From positions 19,740 to 83,739 of the forward strand of contig JAMCTH010000004.1 of the NCBI GenBank assembly GCA_023379025.1: a stretch of DNA of 64,000 nt, given 5' to 3'. This stretch comes from Patescibacteria group bacterium (GTDB lineage: Bacteria > Patescibacteriota > Microgenomatia > UBA10105 > UBA927). Shown piece by piece: positions 144 through 51,950 of this stretch. How positions within the stretch are numbered: the stretch's first letter is position 1; the number at the start of each line of letters is the position of its first letter. Position numbers and translations under genes: made by a program. Under the pieces are notes generated by a model that was given only the letters and a program-made list of their open reading frames with translations, had not been told where the DNA came from and searched no databases.

Positions 144-185
144 GATTCAACAACTTACCGCGACCGCTGTAAATCGTTGAAGCTA
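144..185 (+). promoter_or_regulatory. 42-nt conserved motif copy A (GATTCaacaa-N-CGCGACCGC-N-TTGAAGCTA)
   Basis: Near-identical to the copies at 30693-30734 and 51909-51950. Contains an imperfect palindrome TTACCGCGACCGCTGTAA. Overlaps the 3' end of the PaaX-like gene. Confidence 0.5.
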
Positions 186-932
186 ATCAGAAAGACCGAA
201 ATACTGGAGCAACATCCTGTCATCCTCAATTCTCTCCGCGAGAATATATCGCACCCTCATCGGGACGCCGTACAGTTCCCGCAAAAACTCAATCTCATCA
301 AAACACTGATACGGAGAAACGTATACACTTTTTTGAAGTTGATAGAGATTGAGTTGCCGAAGCCTTTTCCGAAAAATGTCGCGTATCTGCTTGCTTTCTT
401 CAGGAATATCAAATATTACTATTCTCCATTTCTTATCCCAATGCGTTGGTTTCCGCAAAGAAAGTGAGTCGAGCTTAAACGTGAGCGCCCGCTCCATGCC
501 ATGCTTGGTTATGTATACCGTAATTGATCCGTCGCTCTGTTTTTTCGTCGTGATATAACGTTGTTTTTCCATCTGGGCGATCCGTTGCTTTATCCTCCAG
601 GATGAAACGTCTTTTTCGTAAAGATCATACCCATGGATAAATGCCCTCCCCCGCTCTTCGGCTTCGAAAACAAAAAGCATTCCTTCTCCCGCTGCCTTGG
701 CCGCGTAACAAAGAATATCCTTCACGGAGGGAAACTTGTATGATTTATGTTGGGGAGGTGAGGAATTCTCGAAAAGCTGTTTTGCTTTATTGAGCTGTAT
801 GTTCGCAAATGGATGACCACCTCGGTTCTTACCCGACCTCTTACCCACTTTCTTACTTACCTTCCTGGCGTCACTCATACCCGAAAGATGCGAATATATA
901 TTTACTTCTTGTACTCTATCAGAAATATTCAA
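183..932 (-). CDS. PaaX-like transcriptional regulator (winged-helix N-terminus plus PaaX_C-like C-terminus)
   Basis: C-terminal stretch WDKKWRIVIFDIPEESKQIRDIFRKRLRQLNLYQLQKSVYVSPYQCFDEIEFLREL resembles the PaaX C-terminal domain. The true start may be an internal Met. Both ends of the gene are bracketed by the 42-nt GATTC-N30-GAAGCTA motif. Confidence 0.5.
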   Translation of the reverse strand: MNISDRVQEVNIYSHLSGMSDARKVSKKVGKRSGKNRGGHPFANIQLNKAKQLFENSSPPQHKSYKFPSVKDILCYAAKAAGEGMLFVFEAEERGRAFIHGYDLYEKDVSSWRIKQRIAQMEKQRYITTKKQSDGSITVYITKHGMERALTFKLDSLSLRKPTHWDKKWRIVIFDIPEESKQIRDIFRKRLRQLNLYQLQKSVYVSPYQCFDEIEFLRELYGVPMRVRYILAERIEDDRMLLQYFGLSD

Positions 933-938
933 GAAATA

Positions 939-961
939 ACAGCGGTCGCGGTAAGTTGTTG
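939..961 (-). promoter_or_regulatory. Partial inverted copy of the 42-nt motif (ACAGCGGTCGCGGTAAGTTGTTG)
   Basis: A 23-nt exact reverse-complement match to the core of copy A. It sits immediately upstream of the PaaX-like start codon at 932. Confidence 0.5.
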
Positions 962-1322
962 TGCGTAAAAGAAGCTTTTATAGATCAATACAGAGCATAA
1001 AGCCTGACAACATACCGTCAATACATTGATGTCAAATTCTCTAGCCAGAAGCACGATACACCATCTCGTCTCTCTGTCTCATGCACATACCAACCATGAT
1101 ATAATGCAGGAGAAACGGGAATTAGTCCTATAATAAACGCGATTCAGGACAGAAATTATTGAAACATCTCATGACATGTGCATTGTATCGACCGACTCTC
1201 TCATCTCGCATCAGGTGGCACACAAGGGCAACAGAAAGTCGTACGGTACAAAATGGAAACGGATGTCGGTAAATAGCGATGGCGGCCTCAGAATTCCGCC
1301 GGAGCAGGGATTAGGTAAAATG

Positions 1323-2921
1323 CTAGCATGAGGGTCTCAATCCCATCATGCCATTAGGTCCGTAGTTAAATGGTATAACAGAGGTCTCCAAAACCTCTAT
1401 TGGGGGTTCGATTCCCTCCGGACCTGCTGAGAGAGAAATTGAGGCCGCGCCGGTCTGCCGGCTCTGCGCGGGTGGGGTCGCGCAGAGTGTTTTGAAGGGC
1501 TCGCGGAAAACGGCTGAGAGCCGCCGGTCTTTCAAAAAGAAGTTCGAGCCGATACGTTTGGCGAAGATTGCCAAATCTTCGCAGGCATTGTCTGCGCGCG
1601 CGATTTTATGCGCCTGAAAGGCGCTGTCTATAAATTCCTTCATGCGTTCGAGCCGTTTATTTTTCCCCGATAAATTGTCTTTCTTTTCTTCTTCCATCTG
1701 ACGCTTTACTTCTGAAAGCGTATTTTTCTTTTTCCGGTATGTTTCTTGGTCGATTGTTTGATCAAGAAGTCCATCAAGCAATACATCGAGTTTTCTGCTT
1801 ATTTCCACTAACTTTAATTCCAAAATTTGCTTTCGCTTTTCTACTCCACTCGTTTCCGATTCCGAATCGGCAACAAATTTTTGCCGCCACTCGTCCTCCC
1901 ACTCCGGCGGCAATCCCACAGAAGCAATCAAGAGACGAATCTGTTTCTCAAATTCGGAATCGGTTAGATATTTACTGAAACACGGACCGAATTTCTTTGT
2001 ACATCGGTAATATGTGTATGTGACCTTACCTCGCGTCGTGCGGTAGTATTTTGTATGGATTTCTCCTGTAATTGCTCCACCGCACTCTCCGCACCGCGCA
2101 AGTCCGACGAATGGAAAGTGATGCCCCTTAAAATGCGGCCGCTCGATCCGTATAAGCTCTGTCTGCACTTTATGAAACAAATCGCGGCTAATAATCTGTT
2201 CATGCGTGCCGTCATAATATTCGCCGAGGTGAACCATTTGACCGATATAAAATCTATTAGCAAGCATATTGCGAATGGTGTTGATATGAATGATGCGGCC
2301 GCTTTTCCTCCGAATGCCGCTATCTGCAAACATACGCGCAATATCAGTAAAAGAAACAGTACGCGTGGCAAATCGTTCAAACGATTTCTGCACGAGCGGC
2401 GCAGTCTTCGGATCAACGAGAATGGTATGTGCTTTGAGGTCATTCAGATACCCAAGTGGTGCATTATGCGGCCACACTCCGTTTCGCAATTTCTGCCGGA
2501 TGCCGCGCTTCACATTTTCCGAAAGGTTATCGACGTAATACTTAGACTGGCCGAACGCGATCGACAGCATAAATTTCCCCTGTGGTGTGTTATCAAACCA
2601 AAACGTCGGAAACTTGAGCCCTGCGAGCTTACCTGTGTCGATAAGGTAGATAATCCGACCGCCGTCTATAGAATTGCGTGCAAGCCTATCCGGATGCCAT
2701 GCGATAATACCCGCGGCCAATCCCCGTTCAATTTTACCTATAAGATCGGCAAATAGCGGACGGCCAGGTTCTTTGGCGGTTCTGGATTCGGTGATGAATT
2801 CGGAAATTTCTACTTGTTCCCGTTTCGCATATTCATTTATTTCTGCAACTTGTGCCTCTATGGATAAAACCTGCCTATCTTTCTCATCAGTCGATCTTCT
2901 GCAGTATGCGATGTATTTCAT
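1323..2921 (-). CDS. Large serine recombinase (resolvase catalytic domain, recombinase domain and zinc ribbon)
   Basis: N-terminal YCRRSTDEKDRQVLSIEAQ carries the catalytic Ser motif. WHPDRLARN follows. A C-terminal Cys cluster LARCGECGG...YYRC is present. The last ~68 codons read through repeat A' and the tRNA, so the true stop is uncertain. Confidence 0.85.
   Translation of the reverse strand: MKYIAYCRRSTDEKDRQVLSIEAQVAEINEYAKREQVEISEFITESRTAKEPGRPLFADLIGKIERGLAAGIIAWHPDRLARNSIDGGRIIYLIDTGKLAGLKFPTFWFDNTPQGKFMLSIAFGQSKYYVDNLSENVKRGIRQKLRNGVWPHNAPLGYLNDLKAHTILVDPKTAPLVQKSFERFATRTVSFTDIARMFADSGIRRKSGRIIHINTIRNMLANRFYIGQMVHLGEYYDGTHEQIISRDLFHKVQTELIRIERPHFKGHHFPFVGLARCGECGGAITGEIHTKYYRTTRGKVTYTYYRCTKKFGPCFSKYLTDSEFEKQIRLLIASVGLPPEWEDEWRQKFVADSESETSGVEKRKQILELKLVEISRKLDVLLDGLLDQTIDQETYRKKKNTLSEVKRQMEEEKKDNLSGKNKRLERMKEFIDSAFQAHKIARADNACEDLAIFAKRIGSNFFLKDRRLSAVFREPFKTLCATPPAQSRQTGAASISLSAGPEGIEPPIEVLETSVIPFNYGPNGMMGLRPSC
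1356..1426 (+). tRNA. tRNA-Trp (anticodon CCA)
   Basis: Manual cloverleaf: acceptor AGGTCCG/CGGACCT, D-arm GTTA-AATGGTA-TAAC, anticodon stem GAGGT/ACCTC with loop CTCCAAA, T-arm GGGGG-TTCGATT-CCCTC, discriminator G. No CCA is encoded. The 3' end abuts island repeat A. Confidence 0.7.
1427..1526 (+). repeat. Island repeat A' (attL arm): reverse complement of 2967-3066
   Basis: About 100 nt, perfect reverse-complement match to the left half of the central repeat block. It starts right after the tRNA-Trp discriminator, with CTG as the junction core. Confidence 0.8.
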
Positions 2922-2966
2922 ATAATTAAAAGAAATTTTTGCGGGGTCTTTCCTTCTTTTTGCTTT

Positions 2967-3172
2967 CGGCGGCTCTCAGCCGTTTTCCGCGAGCCCTTCA
3001 AAACACTCTGCGCGACCCCACCCGCGCAGAGCCGGCAGACCGGCGCGGCCTCAATTTCTCTCTCAGCAGTGATTTATGAAAAAGTTCGAACCTATTTTCT
3101 CGTTAACTCCTAGCTCGCCCCGCCTGCGGCGGGGATCGCATGGTCGGCGCGTCGCCCCCGCCCGACGCGCCT
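2967..3172 (+). repeat. Central composite repeat A|B (inverted attP-like block)
   Basis: The left half is the reverse complement of 1427-1526. The right half is the reverse complement of 7604-7714 with one mismatch. The two halves overlap at a CAG/CTG core at ~3063-3066. Confidence 0.8.
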
Positions 3173-3242
3173 GCAAACGCATCGGCTCGAAATTTTAAAT
3201 TCCAAAGACCCCGCAGAAATTTCTGTAGGTATCTTTTTTCGT

Positions 3243-3291
3243 ATTGCTAACTATAGTATGTAGAACTAAAGTTAGCAAGTGGCTATAATTC
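3243..3291 (+). promoter_or_regulatory. Candidate C-box/operator and -10 box upstream of the XRE (C-protein) gene
   Basis: Inverted repeat TGCTAACT-N15-AGTTAGCA followed by GCTATAAT, immediately 5' of 3279. Confidence 0.3.
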
Positions 3292-3509
3292 CCGTTAGAA
3301 CAATGAAAAAAGATGTCCTCATCAAATTCGGACAAAAAGTTCGCGAAGAAAGGTTAAAACGAAAACTTTCGCAAGAAGAGTTTGCCGATATTGCCGGTGT
3401 TCATCGTACATATATAGGCATGATTGAGAGAGCCGAAAAAAATATTACACTTGAAAACATCGAAAAAATAGCCAAAGCATTTAACTTTAATATCAAAAAT
3501 CTTTTTTAA
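3279..3509 (+). CDS. XRE-family HTH regulator, candidate RM controller (C) protein
   Basis: LSQEEFADIAGVHRTYIGMIERAEKNITLENIEKIAKAF matches an HTH_XRE domain. It is 76 aa and sits directly upstream of the putative REase. Confidence 0.6.
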   Translation: MAIIPVRTMKKDVLIKFGQKVREERLKRKLSQEEFADIAGVHRTYIGMIERAEKNITLENIEKIAKAFNFNIKNLF

Positions 3510-3517
3510 AAATTTCT

Positions 3518-4366
3518 ATGCTTCCTAACCCAAAATATTTAATTTCTGATAAGAGTTTTTGGGCGCATATTAAGTTTTTGTCTGAAAATTTAGGCTATTC
3601 TGACAGAGGAACCTCAAAACTAAAATCTTACACTAAAGAAGAAATTCTGAAAGTAATGCAACTAACAGGCCTAGACACTTCACACTTAACAAAAAATACA
3701 ATCCATGAAGATACTTACTTAAACACAATTGTAGGTTATTTGAACTACCGATCAAAAATTCTAGAGTCGGAAGTTGAAAAACAACTGATGACAAGAGAGA
3801 ACGCCAAGGAAATTTTTGAGGATTTGAAAAAAACATTAAAACCAAAATGTAAGCTTCCAATGAATAAACAAAGGGGTAAAAAGAAACATTACGCCTACCT
3901 GACTTGTATCGTAAACATGTTAACGGAAGCTACCCTAAAAAAGGCTACTTTTGACCAAGATCCACATTCCTTAACAATAATAACTAAAAATAAAATGCCG
4001 TTACGAACATTTACACGAAGATTTGATGGCGCATATCCAACGATACTCAATCCGTTAGCGATTTGGGAAATTAAAGAATACTACGGAACCACTACGTTTG
4101 GCAGTAGAGTGGCAGATGGTATATACGAATCAATCCTTGACGGAGAAGAATTATCTGAATTAAAGGAGAATGAACATATAGAAGTATTTCACTATTTGAT
4201 GGTTGATGATCATTTCACTTGGTGGATCAAAGGAAAATCATATCTTTGTAGAATAATTGACCTATTGCATATGGGGTTTGTAACTGAGGCAATATTTGGA
4301 AGAGAAGTATTAACTCGCTGGCCAATAGTTGTTGAAAGTTGGAAAAAAATCAGTTTACCACGTTAA
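3518..4366 (+). CDS. Putative type II restriction endonuclease, assigned by context
   Basis: Nine-nt gap after the C-protein gene and convergent with the Dam-family MTase. RRFDGAYPTILNPLAIWEIKEY gives a plausible PD-(D/E)xK arrangement (D ... EIK). No recognisable family beyond that. Confidence 0.35.
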   Translation: MLPNPKYLISDKSFWAHIKFLSENLGYSDRGTSKLKSYTKEEILKVMQLTGLDTSHLTKNTIHEDTYLNTIVGYLNYRSKILESEVEKQLMTRENAKEIFEDLKKTLKPKCKLPMNKQRGKKKHYAYLTCIVNMLTEATLKKATFDQDPHSLTIITKNKMPLRTFTRRFDGAYPTILNPLAIWEIKEYYGTTTFGSRVADGIYESILDGEELSELKENEHIEVFHYLMVDDHFTWWIKGKSYLCRIIDLLHMGFVTEAIFGREVLTRWPIVVESWKKISLPR

Positions 4367-5263
4367 AAGCAATCTCTCTTTAACGAATTCTCCATCCATA
4401 TTTTCTCCGGATTTCTGAAAACGTTTCAGCATGGAATGCCCATTATCTATAAATAATTCACGCTTAAACAAGTCTAACGGAAACTCAAAACTTAACACTT
4501 TATTTCCAGACTTTTTTGTGCCGTCGATTGACAAAGCCACCTTAGCTCCCTTTCTTACACAATCTTCAATCGCTGTAAAAAGATCTTTTAACTTAAAAGA
4601 TTGAGCGCCATATAGAATTGCTTGGCTATCTACATATGGTGGGTCGCAATATATTATATCCCCTTTTTCGGCTAAACGCATTGTTTCTCGATAGTCTGCA
4701 TGAAGAAACTTTGTATTTTTAACTCTGGAATTCCAGATGGCAACTCTATTTTCAAATGACTCTGGGGGTACTGGTTTGTGAGGTCCAATTGGAGTACTAA
4801 TTTTCCCTTCTTTTGTAAAACGCATGACACCACCATAACAAGTTCTTGAAATGAACAATAAATCAAGAGGATTCGGGTGAGCGTTATAGCTGTTTTTTAC
4901 TTTTTCGTAATGAGACTTTCGATCGGCTACAAATTGATTCCAATTTAAACTATAACTCTCAACTAATTTATCCGGAAAGTTTTGCAACAATTCCATCAAC
5001 TCAATTAAGGGCTTAAGCATATCACCAGCAATTGCTTTAGTTGGATTAAAAGTCGCCAAGACGGCCCCTGTCCCAACAAAAGGTTCTATGTATTTGTTAT
5101 AGTCTGCAGGAAACATTGAAACTATTTTTTCTGCAAATCTATGCTTATTACCCACCCACTTAAGTAATTGTGGCGGTGATCCAATAACTAGTGGTGTATC
5201 ATCAAACATTCTATTTTGAGTATATGTGGTAAATGACGAGATTGGAAGGACAAAAGGATTCAT
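4355..5263 (-). CDS. N6-adenine DNA methyltransferase, Dam/D12 class
   Basis: LKWVGNK, EPFVGTGAV (motif I) and IYCDPPY (motif IV) line up with E. coli Dam LKWAGGK / EPFVGAGSV / YCDPPY. Confidence 0.85.
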   Translation of the reverse strand: MNPFVLPISSFTTYTQNRMFDDTPLVIGSPPQLLKWVGNKHRFAEKIVSMFPADYNKYIEPFVGTGAVLATFNPTKAIAGDMLKPLIELMELLQNFPDKLVESYSLNWNQFVADRKSHYEKVKNSYNAHPNPLDLLFISRTCYGGVMRFTKEGKISTPIGPHKPVPPESFENRVAIWNSRVKNTKFLHADYRETMRLAEKGDIIYCDPPYVDSQAILYGAQSFKLKDLFTAIEDCVRKGAKVALSIDGTKKSGNKVLSFEFPLDLFKRELFIDNGHSMLKRFQKSGENMDGEFVKERLLLTW

Positions 5264-5266
5264 ACT

Positions 5267-5866
5267 TCAATTATTTCTTAATAAACCACAAAATACTCCT
5301 CTAATTTCGAGCTCTTTTGGATAGATATTAGAAAGTGTTTTATTTCGAGGCTCTAAATAGACTTTTCCATTTCTATTCCTAAAAACTTTGAGCGTGGCGC
5401 CCTTTTCCGTAATTGCGACTACTCTGTCTCCATCCTGTGCAGTTTTCTGATGCCGGACGACTATAACGTCGCCATCAAGGATATTATCATCCTGCATGCT
5501 TGTCCCTTTTACTTCAAGCGCATAATAATCACCCTTCCTGCTTATCATGGACAATGGTACATCGATCGGCTCCGGATTCTCGATCGGCTCTATTGGATTG
5601 CCAGCCGCTATAATGCCGAGCTTGAATATACGGCCAAACTGCTGAACAGTCGTACTGATACCGCGGGCTATATTATCTGTTTTTTGAAGAAATCCCCTCG
5701 TTTCAAGCTCTTCAACGAAATGCTGGGCAGTACTGACGGATTTTCGGAAATTTCCAGCAATCTCATGGAGCGAAGGTGAATACCCTTTGTTTTTGACGAA
5801 ATTTTTGATGAAATCCAACACCTGCTTCTGCTTCGGTGTGATTGTCATGGAAGTATTGACTTTCAT
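5267..5866 (-). CDS. LexA-like / S24 peptidase-family repressor
   Basis: N-terminal wHTH (KQKQVLDFIK...) is followed by an S24 domain GDYYALEVKGTSMQDDNILDGDVIVVRHQ with a downstream Lys. Transcribed divergently from the TIR-like gene. Confidence 0.75.
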   Translation of the reverse strand: MKVNTSMTITPKQKQVLDFIKNFVKNKGYSPSLHEIAGNFRKSVSTAQHFVEELETRGFLQKTDNIARGISTTVQQFGRIFKLGIIAAGNPIEPIENPEPIDVPLSMISRKGDYYALEVKGTSMQDDNILDGDVIVVRHQKTAQDGDRVVAITEKGATLKVFRNRNGKVYLEPRNKTLSNIYPKELEIRGVFCGLLRNN

Positions 5867-5925
5867 ACGCAGTTGTCCTATTATTAATTTATTACTTTTT
5901 TATGACTTTTGTCAATACTCAAAAT
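5867..5925. promoter_or_regulatory. Divergent promoter/operator region between the S24 repressor and the TIR-like gene
   Basis: Short AT-rich intergenic stretch containing a TGAC-N4-GTCA palindrome (atgacttttgtcaat) and a TATTGAC...GTCAATA inverted pair. Confidence 0.3.
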
Positions 5926-6520
5926 GAATGACCAATACCTATCACCGCTATTATCTCAAATTTTGAACGTGCCTGAAAAGCACAAGGTATTCGTAAGCTT
6001 CCATCACGAAGACCAAGCATATCGTGACCAATTTGATCAATTTTATAGTCAATATTTCATAAGCAAGTCTGTGGATTTTGGCGACATAGAACCGGACAAT
6101 AGTGACGAATATATCAAACGACTGATTCAAGAAGAGCACATCTCCGATACCAGCGTAGTTGTGGTTCTATATGGAGCAAGCACATGGAAAAGAAAACATA
6201 TCGACTGGGAGATGTCAGCGGCGCTTCAAGAAAAAGTCGGCGGACATTCTGGCTTAATACTCATGATCCTTCCCACATTCCCCGTCCGCCCGTACAACGC
6301 ATACGGTCAGTACGACGAATCGTTCCTGCATCCGTATTTTCATCCGAGAGCTTCTGCGAATCTGAAATCGGGGTATGCGACTCTATTATATTGGCCGGGC
6401 TTATATCCCAGCCTGCCTGCCGTACAAATGACTGATGCAATCCAAAACGCGTTTGACCGGCGAATAACCCATAAGAAACTTATTGACAATTCTCACCCGC
6501 AATATCAAAATAACCGCTAA
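5909..6520 (+). CDS. TIR-like domain protein (DUF1863 / ThsB-like)
   Basis: KVFVSFHHEDQAYRD and SVVVVLYGASTWKRKHIDWEMSAALQEK parallel the ThsB blocks RVFFSFHYQD and SVTCVLIGSQTFNRRWVRYEIMKSIEKG. Confidence 0.65.
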   Translation: MSILKMNDQYLSPLLSQILNVPEKHKVFVSFHHEDQAYRDQFDQFYSQYFISKSVDFGDIEPDNSDEYIKRLIQEEHISDTSVVVVLYGASTWKRKHIDWEMSAALQEKVGGHSGLILMILPTFPVRPYNAYGQYDESFLHPYFHPRASANLKSGYATLLYWPGLYPSLPAVQMTDAIQNAFDRRITHKKLIDNSHPQYQNNR

Positions 6521-6522
6521 GC

Positions 6523-7152
6523 ATGAACTTGAGTAATTTATTACGAATTTATGTCGATCATTACGCGCTAAACATAGAAATAGGTCTTATCCCTATCGGT
6601 ATCGCGATCGGTCTTGTTGTGATCCTTGTATTAAAAAAAGCTTTTAACTGGAATTTTGGTTTCAATGAAGTTGAACTTAATATAAATCTGGGCGGAATTG
6701 GAAATGTAAAAATCACGCCCAATCATGAGGTAAGGCAAATTGCTCATAAAGCATGGACAGAATTGGTTACGCGAAAGGCCGGTCTTCTATTTGAGGCGGA
6801 ACACGATGTAATCATCGAGGTGTATAACTCGTGGTATCAACTATTTAAAGAAATCAGACTGATGATAAGGAGCGTCCCGGCATCCCAGTTAAAAAATAAC
6901 GACACGAAACGCTTGATAGAAATTCTGGTAAAATCACTCAATCTTGGAATGAGGCCGCACTTAACAAAATGGCAAGCGAGATTTAGACGATGGTATGAGG
7001 CAGAATCTAAGAAGCCTAAAAACGCAGAAAAAAGCCCACAAGATATTCAAAAAAAATATGCGCGTTATGATGAACTCGTGGCAGACTTAATAAAAATAAA
7101 CGGCCAGCTTATTGAATATACTGAAGAACTGAAAAAACTATCCCTAAAATAG
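6523..7152 (+). CDS. Single-pass membrane protein of unknown function; putative partner/effector of the TIR-like protein
   Basis: Three-nt gap after the TIR gene suggests translational coupling. One TM helix (IGLIPIGIAIGLVVILVL), then a ~165-aa predicted soluble domain with a K/E-rich tail. No recognisable family. Confidence 0.5.
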   Translation: MNLSNLLRIYVDHYALNIEIGLIPIGIAIGLVVILVLKKAFNWNFGFNEVELNINLGGIGNVKITPNHEVRQIAHKAWTELVTRKAGLLFEAEHDVIIEVYNSWYQLFKEIRLMIRSVPASQLKNNDTKRLIEILVKSLNLGMRPHLTKWQARFRRWYEAESKKPKNAEKSPQDIQKKYARYDELVADLIKINGQLIEYTEELKKLSLK

Positions 7153-7603
7153 GCGGCGTCCGCCGCCCCCGCTCCCCCGGATAGTACTAGCTGAAAAGCG
7201 TGCGTCTCCGCACGCTCTATCCACGACCCGAACGTGGTGCGCAGCGTGCTCAAATAATTTCTTTGCGCGAAGCGCTAACCTATAAGTGGGCGCGCAAGCC
7301 GTACGAACGCTGGACAGGGATACGATATGAGCGGCGGGGGCGAAAAGCGGATCATCCCGTCGACTGCAGGACGTACTAAATCAAAATAGACTACGGTAGA
7401 GACTGAAAAAGTAAATAAACCACCTGAACATTGGCGAGGCGCCCCCTAGGGCGCCCTCTCGCACAAAGGCGGGGTCGCCGCCATCCGCTCTTGTTTTGGG
7501 TGGGAGGGTGATACGGAATCAAGAAAGCATTGGCTTTGTGTTAATATTAATCCATCAATGCTCGCTCCCTAGCGAGAACGCGCGCGCAGACAGTGCCTTA
7601 GGC

Positions 7604-7714
7604 GCGTCGGGCGAGGGCGACGCGCCGACCATGCGATCCCCGCCGCAGGCGGGGCGAGCTAGGAGTTAACGAGAAAATAGGTTCGAACTTTTTCATAAAT
7701 CACTGCCATAACAA
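7604..7714 (+). repeat. Island repeat B' (attR arm): reverse complement of 3063-3172
   Basis: About 110 nt with one mismatch. It ends at ...aatcaCTG|ccataac. Confidence 0.8.
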
Positions 7715-10972: not shown

Positions 10973-13900
10973 TCAACGAACCACTGTCATCGCTGATGCC
11001 GTTGCCATATAGGAAAATGTTTGCTGTGTATATGCTTGGATTGTTTGATCATTCGCAATTGCCGTAAAAACAGGATCGTTCGGATAAATCGAATAACCGT
11101 CAATGCCATTACTGTCCTGAAGCTGACTAAATTGCCACAAGAGCACTCCGCCATTGTCCTTCGTGAATTTTTTTACTGCTGACGCAAGCGCCTGTGCGCG
11201 GCCGGCAAACTGTTCCGGAGTACAGCTCGGTGTTCCTGATGCAGAAGAACAGCTGGGCTCACAGTCTTTACAGACTGGCGGTCCATTACCGTGGTCTCCC
11301 AGTTCCCCGACATAAAATACCTTTCCAAGGCTTTGTGTCACTGCCTGAGCCTGCTGGCATTCACGGACACTCTCCGGACTATCGAGATATGCATGGCACG
11401 TCCCGGCGGAGATAAACGGTATCTGCATAATTTTTGTGTACTGAACCCCTCCGTCGGGGTAGGCAAGCACGTTGGTATTAAAACCCATAAGACCGGGAGA
11501 GATTAACACAGTCGGATTACTCTCGTGAATGATTTGCGCGGCATCGGTCATAAGAGCAATTTCTGCCGTACCGCATTCAGCCGTATCGCAGTGGGGCTCG
11601 TTAAACAGTTCAACAGCCAAGATTCGTTTGTTATATACGGTATTGGCCAAAACCGAATTTGAAATCTGTTTGATATACGGAATATAACTATCGTACGCTC
11701 CCTTCTGAAACCATTTCATGCGGCTTCCGGTACATGCGGGCGGATCCGTACACTGATACTGGGGATCGATCTCACCGAAATTGGCGAGGGAGATAATAAA
11801 CTTCATATCCGGTGCGTCGGCCGGTACATGATCCAGTACCGCCAGGATGGATTGTTCATCGAAACCGAATATCCGTACCACGGTAACTCCCTGCGCATGA
11901 AGATACGAAAGGGTTTTTGCCACTTGTTCCGGCGACCCTTTTCCGAGATTAAACGAGTTGAATCCGATAAAGTTGTTTTGTGTTACGGTAATGGCAGTGC
12001 CGGACGCTTTCGTTTGCGGAGAAGGACATGGTTCCGATTCACTACCGCATTGTATAATCGCATGGTTCGTGCTTCTGACGTCCGCAACATACCCCGGAAG
12101 ATAACCTTTCCCACCTCTTAAACCGCTTGACGAAGTAACAGGAAGACGAATGATGCGCTGAATAGACGTCACTATGGCATTCCATACCGATGCCAGAAAT
12201 TCCCAACCGCGCCGGAATATCCCCGACAGTGCGTTCCGTAACCCGTCAAGGAACCCCGGACCCTCTGGCTTTTCTTTGACATTTTTAAGCGGCATCGTTA
12301 CCGGTGTCGGGGTGGGTGTCACGGATGACAAGCCAGGGATAAGCGTCGGGGATGCATACGGTTCTGAACCGGTAGGACTCGGAAGAAGTGCAATATTGCC
12401 CCGGTAGAGGTAGGGTGTCGGGGTCGGAGCTCTTGCAACCGGAGGGTAATAATAGGTGTTTTGTCCGGTTTGATACGGAGTAGGGGTTGCGGTTGGAGCG
12501 GGTGTCGGCGTTGCCGTCGGAACGGGCGTCGGTGTTGCGGTAGGCGTCGGTGTTGGTGTAGGGGTGGGAGTTGCGGTCGGAATTGGCGTGGGTGTTGCCG
12601 TCGGAACGGGAGTGGGCGTTGCGGTAGGCGTCGGTGTTGGTGTAGGGGTGGGAGTTGCTGTCGGCAAGAGATATACCAGTGCCGGACCTCCTCCTATCGG
12701 CCCGGAAACCGCCGCGGAAGCTTGTGCCTGTATTCCGCCGCTTGATTGATTGGTCCCTCCGCCGCCGGACGACGAGGACGGCGATGAAGGCGTTTGCGGA
12801 GCCACAGATGATGCTCCCGGAGCCGGAGCCGGCGCAGGCGTCACATGAGGAAGATTCACCAAACCGGACAAACCAACCGTCGGCCAGGTAGGCAGGGAAT
12901 AGCCTGTTTCAGCGTTCTGAGGCAGAAGCGCACCAGTCACTGACTGCGCACTTCCCAATGACTGTGCCCGGGCAGTTTGGACGATCGTCTCCAGAATATT
13001 TTCTCCCTGGCCGATATATTCCCTGCCGTTAAACACCTTGGTCTTGTAATAGTCATAGAGGAGCGGAAAATCGTTTTTGAGCTGCTCGGGATGGACGACA
13101 TACTGGGTACCCGCACAGGCGAAGAATTCCATCCTTCCGCCAACGCTGCAGTTATAATCATGACTCAGAACTGTGTTCGCCGAATAGGCGGCTGCCTTCC
13201 CGTCACCCGGACGGAACTCGATATTATATGTTGCCAAAATCGCCCGGTAATCGCTTCTCTCACTGGCTAACCCCACCATCGTCCCTCCCTGATTTGGCGC
13301 GGATAATACCGCATACCGCTGCATATCCCAGGTATGAATGAGCTCATGGATGATCGCGGAAGCATAAGATTCTCTATAATAATTATCGTCAGGGCGTAAC
13401 GGCCATGGAATCATGATTGAGGAGTTTCCCCATGCCTCGCCGCCGAGATATCCCTGATCTACATTCGAGCGCATCATGAGATCAATTAACCGGCCGGTCG
13501 AGAGATTTGGCGGGAGGATAGCAAGCGTATTATCGAGGATATTGAGCTCATCCGGCGTCCAGTAACCTCTTGTCGCCAAAACCTTTATATTGTATTTTGC
13601 ATCCAACGCCAATTGCTGCGCTACCGTTGAATAAGCCAGTTGGGCTATTTCCCCCGCACGCTGTACATCGGTAATGATGGTAAACGTATAATCCGATCCG
13701 CATTCTAGTGTATGTCCGGAGGTATCGAGCATATAATCACCCGGCAGGCACTCACCGTTCCATTTCTTCTCGGGCGTACAGGTTACGACCCGGGTCTTAC
13801 TCGGGAGTACTTCCATATCCCCGGTTGTGCATGTTTGGTTAGCCAATTCGGCCAGTCGGGCTTTGTCTGCCGCATCAATTGCTGCGATGGCACTGTTCCT

Positions 13901-36209: not shown

Positions 36210-36283
36210 TAGTTCGACTGCCTCCGGTAACCCCAACAAAATAACCCGGCAAGGTATTTATTGGGCGCATCGGAGGCAGGAAT

Positions 36284-36355
36284 GCGGGAGTAGTTCAGCG
36301 GCAGAACGCGCGTCTCCAAGACGCGAGGTCCTGGGTTCGAGTCCCAGCTTCCGCT
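36284..36355 (+). tRNA. tRNA-Trp (CCA)
   Basis: Acceptor GCGGGAG/CTTCCGC, anticodon stem CGCGT/ACGCG with loop CTCCAAG, T-arm CTGGG-TTCGAGT-CCCAG. Canonical position upstream of secE. Confidence 0.7.
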
Positions 36356-36383
36356 TTTTATAGTCGGTTCGTGCTGATCTTTT

Positions 36384-36457
36384 GGGGAGGAAGTTCATAT
36401 GGCTTGAACGCGAGGCTTTCAACCTCGAGCTTGCGGGTTCAAATCCCGTCCTCCCCA
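36384..36457 (+). tRNA. tRNA-Glu (TTC)
   Basis: Acceptor GGGGAGG/CCTCCCC, anticodon stem CGAGG/CCTCG with loop CTTTCAA, T-arm GCGGG-TTCAAAT-CCCGT. Position 8 is A, which is atypical. Confidence 0.6.
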
Positions 36458-36463
36458 TTTCGT

Positions 36464-36535
36464 GCCCCCGTAGCTCAGGTGGCAGAGCACCTGCTTCTAA
36501 GCAGAAGATCGCGAGTCCGAGTCTCGCCGGCGGCG
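36464..36535 (+). tRNA. tRNA-like, Arg(TCT)-like, with an atypical anticodon arm
   Basis: D-arm TAGCTCAGGTGGCAGAGC is canonical. T-arm GCGAG-TCCGAGT-CTCGC. The anticodon region CCTGC-TTCTAA-GCAGA has only a 6-nt loop. Acceptor has one C:C mismatch. Confidence 0.4.
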
Positions 36536-36651
36536 TTCGAGGAGGTGGGTCGCAGAAACGAGTAGCCCGTAGCTTAACGAGCTTCCTAGGAGCTTACTCG
36601 CTTCTCACTCGCCTCCTCGATAATTTCGTTTGTTCGCTTGTGGTCGTACGT

Positions 36652-36725
36652 CGGGGTGTAGCGCAGCCTGGCAGCGCGGTCCGCTTGGTACGGACAGGTC
36701 GTAGGTTCAAATCCTACCGCCCCGA
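36652..36725 (+). tRNA. tRNA-Pro (TGG)-like
   Basis: Acceptor CGGGGTG/CGCCCCG, anticodon stem GTCCG/CGGAC with loop CTTGGTA (position 37 = T, atypical), T-arm GTAGG-TTCAAAT-CCTAC. Confidence 0.5.
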
Positions 36726-36729
36726 CCTC

Positions 36730-46539: not shown

Positions 46540-47589
46540 CTACGTGAACAGCCGCAAAAGTTCAATCACCTTTTGTCGTACTGCCTCCGTTATCACGACC
46601 TCCACCATGCCCTCGCCGGGTTGGCCGTAATAGACATGTGCGCCGTGAGGCGCGTACCGTATTGCACAAAGTGCCAAAAGATCTTCCTCTCCATCTACCT
46701 CTATCACGACCCCCCTCTTCCTCTCTTCCCCTCTTCCCCGCTGTACCGCATTTTTAACTGCCACGGTGGCTTCTGCACTTATAAACCCCGGGCCGCTCTT
46801 TACTCTAATACTATGTAGTATTAGAGTATTGAACAGGGATCGGAGCGGCGCGTACTCTTTCCTTCCGACGCGATGATCAATGATCATAATGTCAGGAGTG
46901 ACGCCTGATTTGAGAAACCGCTCGGTCGTCACGTCGCCGACGGTAATCAGTGGGCGTTTTTGATGGGAAAGAATAGTATTAAAATCCTTTTCCGACAGTA
47001 TTTTCCCCAGTGGTTGAGATAAGATTGTGCGCAGGCTTTCCGGCATGATCAACCTGCCATTGCTATCAATTTCACGATTGCGAATCCGTGAAGACGAAAT
47101 AGGATTGCCGTCATGTGCATCAACCAACGGCACTTCGATAAGAACTAATTGCGCAAGTCCTCGGGATTTCCGAATCTCATTTATCTCCATCCCCCGTTTC
47201 TTGGTTTCCGTCGAGACCACAAGCGCATCGATATCAGTCCGTGACGATCCCGGCTCATACGGATCATCAATAGGATGGACTGTGGCTCGATTGATATAGC
47301 GGTTTTGTTTCAACCATCGTTCTAGTTCTGATTTTCGCTCACGATACGATTGCAACTCGTAATCTGAAAAGGTGAGACCCTTTGAGGCTAAATGGGAATT
47401 TTGGAACTGGTTTGAGATTTGGTCATTGGGATTTGGGATTTGGGATTTATATTTAGTAATGAATCTGTCGCTCGTCAACCCGATCGTCACCTGCTCGCCC
47501 ACCGCGAACGCTTTCCGGAGGATCGCCTCATGACCGCGGTGCAGCCGGTCAAACGTCCCCCCGACCAATACATGCGGATACTTCTTCAT
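46540..47589 (-). CDS. Archaeal-type phosphopantetheine adenylyltransferase-like domain fused to a DUF359-like domain (putative GTP-dependent dephospho-CoA kinase)
   Basis: N-terminal VLVGGTFDRLHRGH...GLTSDRF is a cytidylyltransferase/PPAT signature. C-terminal PLITVGDVTTE resembles the DUF359 GDV motif. The ~37-nt shared insert at 47411-47447 adds IPNPNDQIS in-frame. Confidence 0.5.
   Translation of the reverse strand: MKKYPHVLVGGTFDRLHRGHEAILRKAFAVGEQVTIGLTSDRFITKYKSQIPNPNDQISNQFQNSHLASKGLTFSDYELQSYRERKSELERWLKQNRYINRATVHPIDDPYEPGSSRTDIDALVVSTETKKRGMEINEIRKSRGLAQLVLIEVPLVDAHDGNPISSSRIRNREIDSNGRLIMPESLRTILSQPLGKILSEKDFNTILSHQKRPLITVGDVTTERFLKSGVTPDIMIIDHRVGRKEYAPLRSLFNTLILHSIRVKSGPGFISAEATVAVKNAVQRGRGEERKRGVVIEVDGEEDLLALCAIRYAPHGAHVYYGQPGEGMVEVVITEAVRQKVIELLRLFT
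47411..47447. repeat. ~37-nt shared element copy 1 (tttgagatttggtcattgggatttgggattt), in-frame in the PPAT/DUF359 gene
   Basis: A 19-nt identical core plus a similar tail, matching 63878-63914. Encodes IPNPNDQIS on the minus strand. Confidence 0.6.
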
Positions 47590-49100: not shown

Positions 49101-49114
49101 CCGAACCCACCGCG

Positions 49115-50249: not shown

Positions 50250-51099
50250 TGATAGTCTGATATCGTTGTTTGCCCGGCTCCGCGACGATCCGGCGGCTAT
50301 ACCTACGGATTCCTTCCGTACCAATGCCAGGATCCGGGTGCTGAACCGCATCCGGCCGACTCCTGCCGCCGCACGGCACATCCGAATGCCCAAGAAGGTG
50401 TGGCAAATTCTGACCGGCGCTGTCGCCGTGCCGGCACTCTTAGGCGCCGGCATCGTTCTTGCCGCCCAGTCGAGCGGTCCGGCAAATCCGCTTTACCCCG
50501 TCAAAATCGCAAGCGAACGGGCAGCGCTTGCCGCGGCCCCTGGCGGCGCCCTCAAAACATCCATTGCCGTCGGTATCCTGAAACGCCGGGCAGACGAGCT
50601 CACCGCTGCCACGAAAACGGCAAACACGAAACGCGAAGAGGATGCGCGCTCTGCCGCGACAGAAAGCCTCCGGTCTATCCGGGACACGAAACAGGTATCG
50701 GAAACTGCGGTCAATACGCTCATCCGGGAAGAACCGATACTCCGAAAAGCATTCGGCGGATCTGCCCCGTCGGGAGAGGACACGCCTCGGACGCCGACGG
50801 AAACGCCGTCATCCGGCCAAGGAGAAGGTACTCACTCCCGACCGGGTACGCACACGGAACGGCAAAGCGGAAGCGAAGGATCCCTGCCGTCTACCCCGGA
50901 ACCCTCCATCACTCCCGAGTCCGCCGGAGCAAGCGGTGAATCCATGCTGAAGAGCGAGGTAAAAGGTGTCGAAACGACGCTCTCCCCCGCCGGGCCAGCT
51001 TCCCGGGAAAGCGGCTCTTCCGACAACCAACGATCCTACAGTCATGACGCTACACCGGCCCCCACTATCTCCGCCTTCCCCGCCGGAGAAAAAGAGTAA
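50236..51099 (+). CDS. Putative anti-sigma factor / membrane protein
   Basis: Overlaps the sigma gene's end. One TM helix (VWQILTGAVAVPALLGAGIVLAA), then an extracytoplasmic Ser/Thr/Pro-rich region. Confidence 0.5.
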   Translation: MKHDDDSLISLFARLRDDPAAIPTDSFRTNARIRVLNRIRPTPAAARHIRMPKKVWQILTGAVAVPALLGAGIVLAAQSSGPANPLYPVKIASERAALAAAPGGALKTSIAVGILKRRADELTAATKTANTKREEDARSAATESLRSIRDTKQVSETAVNTLIREEPILRKAFGGSAPSGEDTPRTPTETPSSGQGEGTHSRPGTHTERQSGSEGSLPSTPEPSITPESAGASGESMLKSEVKGVETTLSPAGPASRESGSSDNQRSYSHDATPAPTISAFPAGEKE

Positions 51100-51184
51100 T
51101 CCCGCCGATTCCGTCCGCCCCATCCCGATACTGTTACGTTTTCCGGATATGATCGTTTCTTTCACTAGAGAAGGAGGTGATTCT

Positions 51185-51619
51185 ATGCAGGCACTTTTAG
51201 GGGTTTTACTCACACTCGCATTAAGTATCGGCGCAGTCAGGTTGATGGCCGATGATGTTTCCAATGGCCATGCCGGGGCAACGCCCAGGGTACTCGTCAG
51301 TGCTGACACAACCGGCGCGACAGGCACAAGCGGTCCTACAGGTGCGACTGGAACATCCGGTGCATCCGGACCTACCGGAGCAACCGGCATCCTTTCCGTC
51401 TCGGGCCCGACCGGCATCATCCTTCCGGCAGGCCGGGAAGACGCCGGAAGCCGTGAGGACGACCACGGAGAAAACGAACGCGAAGCACACGCGTCCGTTC
51501 ATGCGGCATTCGGGCTTTCGGTCGCGGGATCAAACGAAACCCGGGAAGACGCGCATGAAAGCGCTCATTCGTCAGCGCAGAGCCAACTGACGGTCACGGC
51601 AGGCGGAGAAAACGAGTAG
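51185..51619 (+). CDS. Secreted protein with Gly-x-Thr (collagen-like) repeats
   Basis: Strong SD (gaaggaggtgattctATG). Signal peptide MQALLGVLLTLALSIGAV. Repeat block GATGTSGPTGATGTSGASGPTGATG. Confidence 0.55.
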   Translation: MQALLGVLLTLALSIGAVRLMADDVSNGHAGATPRVLVSADTTGATGTSGPTGATGTSGASGPTGATGILSVSGPTGIILPAGREDAGSREDDHGENEREAHASVHAAFGLSVAGSNETREDAHESAHSSAQSQLTVTAGGENE

Positions 51620-51908
51620 TATGAATGATCAACGATCATGGTCCGAAAAAACCCGGGGAGAGAAGAAGGCAGGAAAGCGGCCGGGAGGCCGCTTTCCTGC
51701 GGATGACCCGGAAAGCCCGAAACCGCTGCTCGGCATGCTCCGGGAGCTCTATATCCTTTTCTTTTCCGATCCGGATGAACGTGCCCCGAATGATGATGGT
51801 TTTGCTCATCTCAAACGGGAATGGAAGAATTGAATATCTATCTTTCCCGCGTCTATCGCACTGATACTACCTTGATATCCGATGCCCATACTGTGTGATT
51901 TGTGTATA

Positions 51909-51950
51909 TATCCAACAAATAAGCGCGACCGCGCTAACTCGTTGAAGCTA
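51909..51950 (+). promoter_or_regulatory. 42-nt conserved motif copy C
   Basis: ATCCAACAAataAGCGCGACCGCGCTaactcgTTGAAGCTA. The central stem shows compensatory changes (AGCGCG/CGCGCT). Confidence 0.45.

What the first reader, a model, noticed from the sequence alone, without database searches (positions are those of the whole stretch)
144..51950. Recurrent 42-nt GATTC-N30-GAAGCTA element, two copies of which bracket the PaaX-like regulator gene: candidate operator or regulon signal
Copies at 144-185, 30693-30734 and 51909-51950 share GATTCAACAA...CGCGACCGC...TTGAAGCTA. They also show a central imperfect palindrome TTAC-N10-GTAA, whose stem carries compensatory changes in copy C (AGCGCG/CGCGCT). 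A 23-nt inverted partial copy at 939-961 lies just upstream of the PaaX-like start. The gene is therefore flanked by inverted copies. The outer half-sites GATTC ... GAAGC, about 30 nt apart, resemble the E. coli PaaX operator layout (TGATTC-N27-GAATCA) as I recall it. This points to autoregulation plus extra targets, including the membrane protein at 30084-30668. Alternatives are a small structured RNA or a MITE-like element.
Basis: partly seen in the sequence, partly recalled or inferred. Interest (0 to 1): 0.55.

Follow-up and report, generated by a model that had tools for sequence, protein, structure and literature searches.

The report
Self-bracketing operator of a mini-PaaX regulator
The repeated 42-base element is most likely the DNA docking site of the small PaaX-like protein whose gene it brackets; the same gene-between-two-sites layout, with a different site sequence in each genome, appears in all 11 related Patescibacteria loci I could examine.

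Summary
The window holds exactly four copies: A 144-185(+), B 30693-30734(+), C 51909-51950(+) and D 924-966(-). D is a near-full copy, not a 23-nt fragment. No weaker copies exist: the PWM scores are at least 52 bits against a next-best 2.9.

The element is a composite DNA palindrome: a 7-8 bp arm, a 7-8 bp spacer, an 8 bp core (GCGACCGC), then spacer and arm.

The bracketed gene (183-878, minus strand) encodes a truncated PaaX-type protein: a MarR-like winged helix plus a Cas2-fold domain, with no C-terminal effector domain. Its best structural match is E. coli PaaX (8A39).

In 10 further loci from Gottesmanbacteria/Microgenomates, homologues (33-53% identical) are each bracketed by two copies of a genome-specific palindrome with the same architecture. 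Arm sequence tracks the N-terminal residues of the recognition helix; a prediction made from the helix was met in L020. Three genomes share synteny (tRNA-Trp | module | 164-176 aa gene) but have three different site sequences, which points to co-evolution in place rather than transposition. Hairpin potential and covariation are not conserved.

Best reading: a cognate operator giving autoregulation, with B a plausible extra target. The role of the downstream copy and of the solo copy C is unresolved. No binding has been tested.

The parts
144..185 (+). Copy A. Composite palindrome (symmetric part about 145-182: ATTCAACA-ACTTACC-GCGACCGC-TGTAAAT-CGTTGAAG), immediately 3' of the PaaX-like gene. 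Its last 3 nt (CTA) are the gene's TAG stop on the minus strand. It lies between convergent genes.
924..966 (-). Copy D. Near-full inverted copy upstream of the PaaX-like gene, with its centre 67 nt before ATG 876-878. It has no hairpin potential as a single strand (-1.6 kcal/mol, z +0.69), yet keeps the arm and core sequence.
   Evidence: (I3: 34 nt, 88%)
30693..30734 (+). Copy B. Solo copy in the divergent intergenic region, 25 nt upstream of the start of membrane-protein ORF 30084-30668(-), with the AAGGAG Shine-Dalgarno abutting the site. It is 130 nt upstream of ORF 30865-31362(+).
51909..51950 (+). Copy C. The most diverged solo copy, between convergent genes. It abuts a terminator-like hairpin (51954-51969, minus strand) downstream of rpe (52119-52778, minus strand).
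183..878 (-). Gene for the truncated PaaX-type protein, 231 aa from ATG 876-878 (the mechanical ORF extends to a TTG at 932). It comprises a basic N-terminal tail, a MarR-like winged helix and a Cas2-fold PaaX_M domain, with no PaaX_C domain.
   Evidence: PaaX_M E 6e-21; 8A39 PaaX top fold hit
1356..1427 (+). tRNA-Trp, divergent from the PaaX-like gene. The same adjacency is found in L016 and L017, marking the module as a conserved chromosomal locus.
30084..30668 (-). Membrane-protein ORF (no family match). It is followed on the same strand by the 6332-aa ORF 10973-29971. This is the candidate extra target of copy B, inferred from position only.

Best explanation
The 42-nt element is the cognate double-stranded DNA binding site (operator) of the protein encoded between copies D and A.

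The protein is a short PaaX-family member. It has a MarR-like winged-helix DNA-binding domain joined to a Cas2-fold domain; in PaaX the corresponding region has been described as a dimerisation motif. A symmetric dimer, or a dimer of dimers, is inferred to read the two outer 7-8 bp arms, whose centres are about 30 bp (three helical turns) apart, and the central 8 bp core. The 7-8 bp spacers are largely free to vary.

The upstream copy lies on or next to the gene's promoter, so occupancy should feed back on the gene's own transcription; autorepression is the most likely sign. The downstream copy may cooperate by looping. Alternatively it may act as a roadblock or insulator against convergent transcription or, where the next gene is co-directional (L019), as that gene's operator. 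Copy B is placed to control the membrane-protein and giant-protein transcription unit. Copy C has no evident target.

Shown: the anatomy of the sites, the bracketing in 11 of 11 loci, the correspondence between helix and arm, and synteny with diverged site sequences. Inferred: the binding itself, stoichiometry, the sign of regulation, and the role of the downstream and solo copies.
For: 1. Protein identity. Pfam PaaX_M matches at E 6e-21. The AF2 model (pLDDT 80) has E. coli W PaaX 8A39 as its best PDB fold match (E 4e-4, 208 columns), followed by Cas2 structures for the C-terminal domain. A family profile weakly matches the MarR recognition helix and wing.

2. Bracketing. Each homologue (33-53% identical in alignment A3) is tightly bracketed by two copies of a palindrome built as arm-spacer-8 bp core-spacer-arm:
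- L010/L014: TTGACAA/GCGGCCGC
- L006: ATTCATC/GCATATGC
- L012/L018: CCCCACA/GCTATAGC
- L016: TTCACTA/GTACGTAC
- L017: TTGACAA/GCGGTCGC
- L015: AACACA..CGATCG
- L019: CTTACACT/GCTATCGC
- L020: TTGACAA/GCGGCCGC
. Where measured, site centres lie 17-67 nt before the start codon and 15-73 nt after the stop codon (the L006 upstream value comes from the manually located site).

3. Specificity tracks the recognition helix. WG(M/V)RR goes with TTGACAA in four proteins, including L020, which I fetched as a test of this prediction. WKTKQ goes with CCCCACA. W-R/Q-x-K/R-Q goes with ATTCA-type arms.

4. Conservation pattern fits protein contacts, not a hairpin. Arms and core are invariant between L012 and L018 while a spacer changes. 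In the TTGACAA group, the site is the only alignable island in the intergenic region. L006 spacers are not palindromic. D and the L012 downstream copy do not fold (z +0.69 and -0.42). There is no covariation.

5. Promoter overlap in relatives. L012/L018 have TTGAGT (inside the site)-17 nt-TATAAT. L014/L017 have the arm TTGACA as a -35-like hexamer. In L019 both copies are followed directly by TATATT or TATAAT (read from sequence).

6. In-place co-evolution. The window, L016 and L017 share tRNA-Trp | module | 164-176 aa gene. Module identity (46.5%) is similar to that of the flanking orthologues (50-53%), yet the three genomes have three different site sequences.

7. Precedent. E. coli PaaX binds TGATTC-N27-GAATCA and represses its own promoter Px (PMC9493321).
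Against: - No binding data exist.
- Two of the four window copies (A and C) lie between convergent genes, where a classical operator has nothing to regulate. Nothing shown here explains why a downstream copy is kept in every locus.
- In the window, the only promoter-like match near D lies just downstream of the site rather than under it, and such matches are not above chance (3 found against 2.2 expected).
- In some genomes the two copies are nearly identical, spacers included (L014 40/42, L017 38/42). This could reflect DNA-level homogenisation rather than selection for binding.
- The Cas2-fold domain keeps the invariant FDIPE aspartate typical of Cas2, so a nuclease role is not excluded.
- The genome-wide copy number is unknown, because the source genome is not in the searchable DNA collections.
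Confidence: 0.65

Rival explanations
1. A selfish or domesticated palindrome-bounded module, analogous to REP/RAYT 'REPtrons' or IS ends. The Cas2-fold/wHTH protein would act enzymatically on its flanking palindromes (nicking, copying or recombining them). Solo copies B and C would be dispersal products or empty sites.
For: - The geometry is that of a gene tightly bounded by two copies of a roughly 36-40 bp palindrome in 11 of 11 loci.
- The two copies are near-identical, spacers included, in L014 and L017.
- Solo copies lie in extragenic, partly convergent positions, as REPs do.
- The Cas2-type aspartate (FDIPE) is invariant.
- Partial Cas2 HMM hits were found.
- Many Logan hits sit on contigs of about 1 kb holding only this gene, and contig L013 starts 5 nt before the site. 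This is compatible with a repeat, though it is equally expected from two identical flanking 36-mers.
Against: - The syntenic position is conserved next to tRNA-Trp in three genomes. Module divergence equals that of the flanking genes, yet the site sequences differ, which indicates in-place evolution.
- The module is stable in two further syntenic pairs, L012/L018 and L010/L014.
- Copy number is very low: 2 solo copies in 63 kb here and 0 in about 100 kb elsewhere.
- No target-site duplications are visible at A, B or C.
- The relative orientation of the two copies is not conserved: inverted in the window, direct in L012 and L017.
- There are no relatives on viral contigs.
- The fold is that of PaaX, where the corresponding region has been described as a dimerisation motif.
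Confidence: 0.12
2. The protein binds the sites, but their main role is architectural. Bound sites would act as roadblock terminators or insulators at gene boundaries, protecting the small gene from read-through, rather than as promoter operators.
For: - A downstream copy is present in every locus. In the window and six of the ten other loci (L006, L010, L012, L016, L017, L018) the downstream neighbour is convergent.
- A and C lie in convergent intergenic regions, and C abuts a terminator-like hairpin.
Against: - Upstream copies overlap promoter-like hexamers in several relatives.
- In L019 the downstream copy sits directly in front of a -10-like box of a co-directional gene.
- This reading does not explain B, which sits in a divergent promoter region.
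- It is not exclusive of the best explanation.
Confidence: 0.1
3. RNA-level element. The palindromes would be transcribed as 5' and 3' UTR hairpins that stabilise or terminate the mRNA, or that are cleaved by the Cas2-like domain acting as an RNase.
For: - Several copies fold better than shuffled sequence (A z -2.35, C -2.53, L014 -7.3, L017 -5.3).
- C is flagged as terminator-like on the minus strand.
- Some Cas2 proteins and VapD are RNases (established knowledge).
Against: - D and the L012 downstream copy do not fold (z +0.69 and -0.42), although their arm and core sequences are conserved.
- The 8-bp cores are perfect palindromes with no loop (GCGGCCGC, GCATATGC, GCTATAGC), which is typical of duplex recognition.
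- L006 spacers are not complementary.
- There is no covariation.
- There is no Rfam match.
- Sequence, not pairing, is what is conserved.
Confidence: 0.06
4. Recombination (att) sites of the neighbouring large serine recombinase (1323-2921, minus strand). These would be imperfect palindromes with an asymmetric central dinucleotide (AC), allowing inversion or excision of the PaaX-like gene.
For: - A serine recombinase gene lies 400 nt from D.
- The site length (about 40 bp) and the asymmetric central AC resemble serine-integrase att sites (established knowledge).
- A and D are in inverted orientation.
Against: - The bracketing palindromes travel with the PaaX-like gene in 10 other loci, none of which has an adjacent serine recombinase.
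- Most cores are perfectly symmetric.
- The recombinase belongs to a separate element bounded by its own 103-107 nt inverted repeats next to tRNA-Trp.
Confidence: 0.02

Closest known systems
PaaX repressor and its operators (E. coli, Pseudomonas; PDB 8A39, 3L09)
   Same: - The domain order is the same: winged helix followed by a Cas2-fold PaaX_M domain.
- Both use a long operator of about 40 bp with inverted distal half-sites about 30 bp apart. E. coli has TGATTC-N27-GAATCA; here A reads GATTC-N29-GAAGC (N30 in L006), and L006 carries the GATTC/GAATC half-sites themselves.
- Both have a site at the regulator's own gene; PaaX represses its own promoter Px.
   Different: - There is no PaaX_C domain, and the Pfam PaaX N-terminal model is not matched.
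- The score is far below the TIGR02277 cutoff (16.7 against 264.6 bits).
- No paa genes were seen among the ORFs I scanned, and the organism is a Patescibacterium.
- The sites carry an additional conserved 8-bp central core.
- Sites bracket the gene on both sides.
- Site sequence is re-specified between genomes at about 50% protein identity.
REP elements with their RAYT (REP-associated tyrosine transposase) genes
   Same: A gene is flanked by two copies of a roughly 35-nt imperfect palindrome, the palindrome's sequence co-varies with the protein, and further solo copies sit in extragenic DNA.
   Different: - The protein is not a Y1/HUH transposase.
- Copy number is tiny: 4 per 64 kb here, and none beyond the flanking pair in about 100 kb elsewhere.
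- Hairpin formation is not conserved.
- The locus is syntenic and evolves in place.
Cas2 and CRISPR repeats
   Same: - The domain has the Cas2 ferredoxin-like fold and keeps the conserved aspartate at the end of beta-1.
- It is associated with palindromic repeats of about 36 bp.
- Some databases annotate family members as Cas2.
   Different: - Only the first 40 or so positions of the Cas2 models match.
- I saw no cas1 and no CRISPR-like array in the window.
- There are two repeats around a 0.7-kb gene rather than an array of short spacers.
- The repeats are symmetric operators, and the protein carries a wHTH.
MarR-type autoregulators with palindromic operators
   Same: The recognition helix and wing weakly match MarR. 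A dimeric wHTH reads a palindrome overlapping its own promoter.
   Different: - Dimerisation is through a Cas2-fold domain rather than the MarR helical bundle.
- The operator is roughly twice as long and tripartite.
- There is a second copy downstream of the gene.

Membership tests
PaaX family transcriptional regulator (TIGR02277; Pfam PaaX + PaaX_M + PaaX_C) | Central Cas2-like PaaX_M domain | tested here: met
   PF20803 matches at E 6.1e-21, 74.8 bits against a cutoff of 24, over aa 163-235 of the 249-aa ORF. The best fold match is PaaX 8A39.
PaaX family transcriptional regulator (TIGR02277; Pfam PaaX + PaaX_M + PaaX_C) | N-terminal PaaX-type winged-helix domain (PF07848) | tested here: inconclusive
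   There is no Pfam hit at E<=0.01. However, the AF2 model aligns with 8A39 over 208 columns that include the N-terminal part, and the family profile weakly matches a MarR recognition helix and wing (E 0.058).
PaaX family transcriptional regulator (TIGR02277; Pfam PaaX + PaaX_M + PaaX_C) | C-terminal PaaX_C helical domain, and an equivalog-level full-length score | tested here: not met
   The protein ends right after the Cas2-fold domain. TIGR02277 scores 16.7 bits against a cutoff of 264.55.
PaaX family transcriptional regulator (TIGR02277; Pfam PaaX + PaaX_M + PaaX_C) | Association with phenylacetate (paa) catabolic genes and phenylacetyl-CoA as inducer | tested here: not met
   None of the neighbouring or scanned ORFs is a paa gene (gene lists). 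The inducer cannot be tested in silico.
PaaX family transcriptional regulator (TIGR02277; Pfam PaaX + PaaX_M + PaaX_C) | Operator with two inverted half-sites about 27 bp apart, including one at its own promoter | tested here: met
   This is met in silico only. Inverted arms lie about 22-24 bp apart at their inner edges (GATTC-N29-GAAGC in A, GATTC-N30-GAATC in L006), upstream of the protein's own gene in 11 of 11 loci. The reference site comes from PMC9493321.
Cas2 (CRISPR adaptation) | Full-length Cas2 homology | tested here: inconclusive
   TIGR01573 scores 25.1 bits against a cutoff of 24.5, but covers only model positions 2-40 of 96. PADLOC Cas2 models match the same roughly 38 residues. 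Foldseek matches Cas2 structures at TM about 0.5-0.65 of the target.
Cas2 (CRISPR adaptation) | Neighbouring cas1 and a CRISPR array | tested here: not met
   No CRISPR-like repeat array appears in the repeat scan. I saw no cas1 among the ORFs I scanned or in the neighbour lists of the fetched loci.
REP/RAYT (REPtron) | Flanked gene encodes an IS200/IS605-like Y1 (HUH) transposase | tested here: not met
   Only PaaX_M and Cas2-like matches were found.
REP/RAYT (REPtron) | Tens to hundreds of dispersed extragenic copies able to form hairpins | tested here: not met
   There are four copies in 64 kb and no solo copies in about 100 kb of other genomes. Hairpin potential is absent in D and in the L012 downstream copy. 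The whole-genome count is not available.
MITE | Terminal inverted repeats with target-site duplications and many copies | tested here: not met
   No direct repeats flank A, B or C, similarity ends at the roughly 42-nt element, and there are only four copies.
Large-serine-recombinase att site | Site co-occurs with, and is used by, a serine recombinase | tested here: not met
   A recombinase is adjacent only in the window. Ten other bracketed loci lack one next to the module.
Structured RNA / intrinsic terminator | Conserved base-paired structure with covariation, and a U-tract for a terminator | tested here: not met
   One double-sided change occurs in 19 pairs, and the covariation score equals the shuffle mean. 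There is no Rfam hit. Folding z-scores range from -7.3 to +0.69. Only C is flagged as terminator-like.

The most novel reading that the evidence does not exclude
The gene plus its two palindromes is a previously unrecognised kind of repeat-associated module in Patescibacteria. In it, a Cas2-fold protein with its own DNA-targeting winged helix acts catalytically on, or copies, the palindromes that bound it: a REP/RAYT-like or proto-CRISPR-repeat-like system built on Cas2 rather than on a transposase. The solo copies B and C would be its footprints. The evidence here does not exclude this, because the invariant Cas2-type aspartate is retained, the flanking copies are sometimes identical in their spacers too, and a downstream copy is kept in all 11 loci without an obvious regulatory target.
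Probability: 0.1. Interest if true: 0.85.

Novelty: new variant of a known kind. Interest (0 to 1): 0.6.

Why it matters
Gene regulation in the uncultivated Patescibacteria (CPR) is almost unexplored. This finding gives a concrete, testable repressor-operator pair for a large family: 740 clusters at 50% identity with E<=1e-30, and 2936 with E<=1e-10. Some databases currently label family members 'hypothetical' or mis-label them 'Cas2'.

The family offers a natural series of protein/site pairs whose specificity has been rewritten repeatedly at a fixed chromosomal locus. That makes it useful for studying how a transcription factor and its operator co-evolve, for reading a winged-helix recognition code, and as a source of orthogonal repressor-operator pairs.

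The invariable second site downstream of the gene is unusual for an autoregulator and calls for an explanation: looping, insulation, or an activity of the Cas2-fold domain. Full-text searches of the held library for PaaX together with Patescibacteria or Candidate Phyla Radiation returned nothing.

Tried and rejected
- **DNA pattern scans.** I searched CAACAA-N5-CGCGACCGC-N10-TTGAA in the genome and metagenome collections. Each returned two hits, all in unrelated sequence without the palindrome (Planctomycetota and others), i.e. chance.
- **Fetching the source contig.** The 128-kb NCBI contig carrying the 99%-identical protein P0001 could not be fetched. Only a 19-kb Logan contig covering copy B was found, so the genome-wide copy number stays unknown.
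- **Rfam.** Only tRNAs were found.
- **PDB sequence search with the single protein.** No hits.
- **Viral contigs.** No relatives.
- **Literature.** Searches for PaaX together with Patescibacteria or CPR returned nothing. The paper on the 8A39 PaaX structure was not found in the library.
- **Regulon test.** tblastn of the genes next to B and C against the fetched loci found only one orthologue (orf309 in L016), with no site nearby.
- **Extended similarity of A and B beyond the element (possible longer repeat).** It is not supported by alignment.
- **loxP/FRT-like recombination site (13+8+13 layout).** Rejected because the cores are symmetric in most genomes and the orientation of the pair is not conserved.
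- **Integron attC.** Rejected: no cassette array and no extrahelical-base architecture examined.
- **Helical phasing between the two copies.** Centre-to-centre distances range from 693 bp (L006, from the site coordinates) through 712-876 bp, with no common phase.

Full report
**1. Observation**

Reading the three stated intervals confirms the copies:
- A, 144-185: GATTCAACAACTTACCGCGACCGCTGTAAATCGTTGAAGCTA
- B, 30693-30734: GATTCAACAAGTTAACGCGACCGCTGTTAATAATTGAAGCTA
- C, 51909-51950: TATCCAACAAATAAGCGCGACCGCGCTAACTCGTTGAAGCTA

A degenerate 38-nt pattern finds exactly these three, with none in 100 shuffles. The repeat finder shows that the 'partial' inverted copy is in fact near full length: 928-961, 34 nt, 88% complementary to A. 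A PWM built from the four copies scores them at 52.7-63.9 bits. The best other position in 64 kb scores 2.9 bits, and shuffled sequence reaches at most 13 bits. There are therefore four copies and no degenerate family. The remaining CGCGACCGC 9-mers are coding and lack the arms. Similarity does not extend beyond about 42 nt.

**2. Anatomy**

Each copy is an imperfect palindrome around a central AC. It is best described as arm (ATTCAACA) - spacer (7-8 nt) - 8-bp core (GCGACCGC) - spacer - arm (GTTGAAG). In register, 68% of the 19 symmetric positions pair, against 29-42% when the partner is slid. Only one pair changes on both sides, and covariation equals the shuffle mean. As single strands, A, B and C fold modestly (z about -2.1 to -2.5). 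D does not fold at all (-1.6 kcal/mol, z +0.69), although it keeps the arm and core sequence.

Positions of the four copies:
- D has its centre 67 nt upstream of the likely start codon of the bracketed gene.
- A overlaps that gene's stop codon and lies between convergent genes.
- B is in a divergent intergenic region, 25 nt upstream of a membrane-protein ORF. The 6332-aa ORF follows that ORF on the same strand.
- C lies between convergent genes, next to a terminator-like hairpin downstream of rpe.

**3. The protein**

ORF 183-932(-) most likely starts at ATG 876-878, giving 231 aa; homologues align from there. Evidence on its identity:
- It matches Pfam PaaX_M, 'PaaX central Cas2-like domain', at E 6e-21, and nothing else.
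- It is far below the PaaX equivalog cutoff and touches Cas2 models only over about 40 residues.
- An AlphaFold2 model built from 37 homologues (pLDDT 80) has E. coli W PaaX (8A39) as its top PDB match over 208 columns. Cas2 structures follow for the C-terminal domain.
- The family profile weakly matches a MarR recognition helix and wing.

It is thus a 'mini-PaaX': winged helix plus Cas2-fold domain, without the C-terminal domain. The source organism is a Patescibacterium. The closest database protein (99% identical) is annotated as from a 'Patescibacteria group bacterium', and the other named homologues come mostly from Gottesmanbacteria.

**4. Comparative test (the decisive evidence)**

I fetched the genomic context of ten homologues, 33-53% identical to the window protein. 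Every gene is tightly bracketed by two copies of a palindrome with the same tripartite architecture and a genome-specific sequence:

| Locus | Arm | Core |
|---|---|---|
| L010/L014 | TTGACAA | GCGGCCGC |
| L006 | ATTCATC | GCATATGC |
| L012/L018 | CCCCACA | GCTATAGC |
| L016 | TTCACTA | GTACGTAC |
| L017 | TTGACAA | GCGGTCGC |
| L015 | AACACA | CGATCG |
| L019 (the most distant, a 180-aa member) | CTTACACT | GCTATCGC |
| L020 | TTGACAA | GCGGCCGC |

Further points:
- Where measured, site centres lie 17-67 nt before the start codon and 15-73 nt after the stop codon.
- Arm sequence follows the first residues of the predicted recognition helix. WG(M/V)RR goes with TTGACAA in P0032, P0046, P0049 and P0101. 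WKTKQ goes with CCCCACA in P0074 and P0060. RIKQ/RFKQ/QTRQ go with ATTCA-type arms. I fetched L020 specifically to test the WGxRR-to-TTGACAA prediction, and it held.
- Between the syntenic pair L012/L018, the arms and core are invariant while a spacer changes. In the TTGACAA group the site is the only alignable part of the upstream intergenic region.
- The L006 spacers are not self-complementary, and several cores are loop-less perfect palindromes. This fits duplex recognition by a symmetric protein, not a hairpin.

**5. Mobility**

The window, L016 and L017 share the arrangement tRNA-Trp (divergent) | module | convergent 164-176-aa gene. The window's truncated left-end ORF matches the C-termini of those genes. 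Between L016 and L017, module protein identity (46.5%) is like that of the flanking orthologues (53% and 50%), yet the three genomes carry three different site sequences. This indicates vertical inheritance, with the protein and both sites co-evolving in place.

Other observations that argue against a MITE, REP or IS reading:
- No solo copies occur in about 100 kb flanking the homologues.
- No target duplications are visible.
- The family is absent from viral contigs.
- The relative orientation of the two copies is not conserved: inverted here, direct in L012 and L017.

The adjacent serine recombinase belongs to a separate element and is absent from the other loci.

**6. Mechanism**

The most likely mechanism is a cognate operator. 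In relatives the upstream copy overlaps promoter-like hexamers:
- L012/L018: TTGAGT inside the site, then 17 nt, then TATAAT.
- L014/L017: the arm TTGACA serves as a -35-like box.
- L019: -10-like boxes directly follow both copies, the downstream one in front of a co-directional gene.

This fits autorepression, as known for E. coli PaaX at Px, whose site is TGATTC-N27-GAATCA (PMC9493321). In the window itself the promoter evidence is weak. What the obligatory downstream copy does is not shown; looping, roadblock or insulation, and control of the next gene are all possible. B is well placed to control the membrane-protein and giant-protein unit. C has no obvious target.

**7. Comparison and novelty**

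The element works like a PaaX operator, but the protein fails two defining PaaX features (the C-terminal domain and the paa context). It is also not a Cas2 in the CRISPR sense. The family is large: 740 clusters with E<=1e-30. Full-text searches for PaaX together with Patescibacteria or CPR found nothing in the held library.

I rate it a new variant of a known kind: a truncated PaaX-type regulator with a self-bracketing, rapidly re-specified, tripartite operator. The retained Cas2-type aspartate and the spacer-level identity of the paired copies in some genomes keep a more exotic reading alive, at roughly 10%: a Cas2-fold protein acting on its flanking repeats.

**8. Limits**

All functional statements are inferred from sequence. 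The genome-wide copy number in the source organism could not be obtained. Eleven loci are a small sample of the family.

Noticed in passing
window 1323-7706: An apparent integrative defence island lies next to tRNA-Trp. Its genes are a large serine recombinase (1323-2921, minus strand, whose 3' end reads through the tRNA on the opposite strand), a type II restriction enzyme (3518-4366; DUF7687/DUF7690, PADLOC REase_II), a Dam-like methyltransferase (4355-5263, minus strand), a LexA-like S24 repressor (5267-5866, minus strand) and a ThsB-type TIR protein (5909-6520). The island is structured by two abutting pairs of near-perfect inverted repeats: 1424-1526/2967-3069 (103 nt, 100%) bracketing the recombinase gene, and 3066-3172/7600-7706 (107 nt, 99%) bracketing the cargo genes. 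It is not known whether these repeats mark invertible segments.
   Followed up: partly
window 10973-29971 (minus strand): A single 6332-aa ORF lies directly downstream of the membrane-protein gene that follows copy B. It contains internal repeats: 12453-12668 with 12-24 nt periodicity, and 15392-15655/16313-16576 (264 nt, 94%).
   Followed up: no
window 36135-36727: A cluster of five tRNA genes includes a second tRNA-Trp (36284-36355). It is only 32/72 identical to the one at 1356-1427. The cluster also holds a tRNA (36463-36536) for which ARAGORN reports an abnormal anticodon ('ct', tRNA-???), although Rfam scores it as a tRNA at 48 bits.
   Followed up: partly
window 30773-30815, 46711-46753, 52967-53001: A CT-rich motif of about 35 nt (CCCTTTCTTCCCATCTTCCCCTCTTCT-like) recurs in intergenic DNA. 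One copy lies 40 nt from copy B and another about 1 kb from copy C (family D3).
   Followed up: no
window 47411-47441 and 63879-63909: A 31-nt repeat, TTTGAGATTTGGTCATTGGGATTTGGGATTT, is present twice at 94% identity. It is partly tandem at the first site (family D7).
   Followed up: no
window 51669-51700 (minus strand): A strong 14-bp GC-rich hairpin (GCAGGAAAGCGGCC-TCCC-GGCCGCTTTCCTGC) sits inside a small, doubtful ORF region 200 nt from copy C.
   Followed up: no
one search hit list; L013 1-43: Many homologues from Logan assemblies sit on contigs of about 0.9-1.4 kb that hold only this gene, and contig L013 begins 5 nt before the upstream site. This is what a de Bruijn assembler would produce if the gene is flanked by two identical 36-mers or longer. 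It indirectly suggests that the bracketing is widespread in the family.
   Followed up: partly
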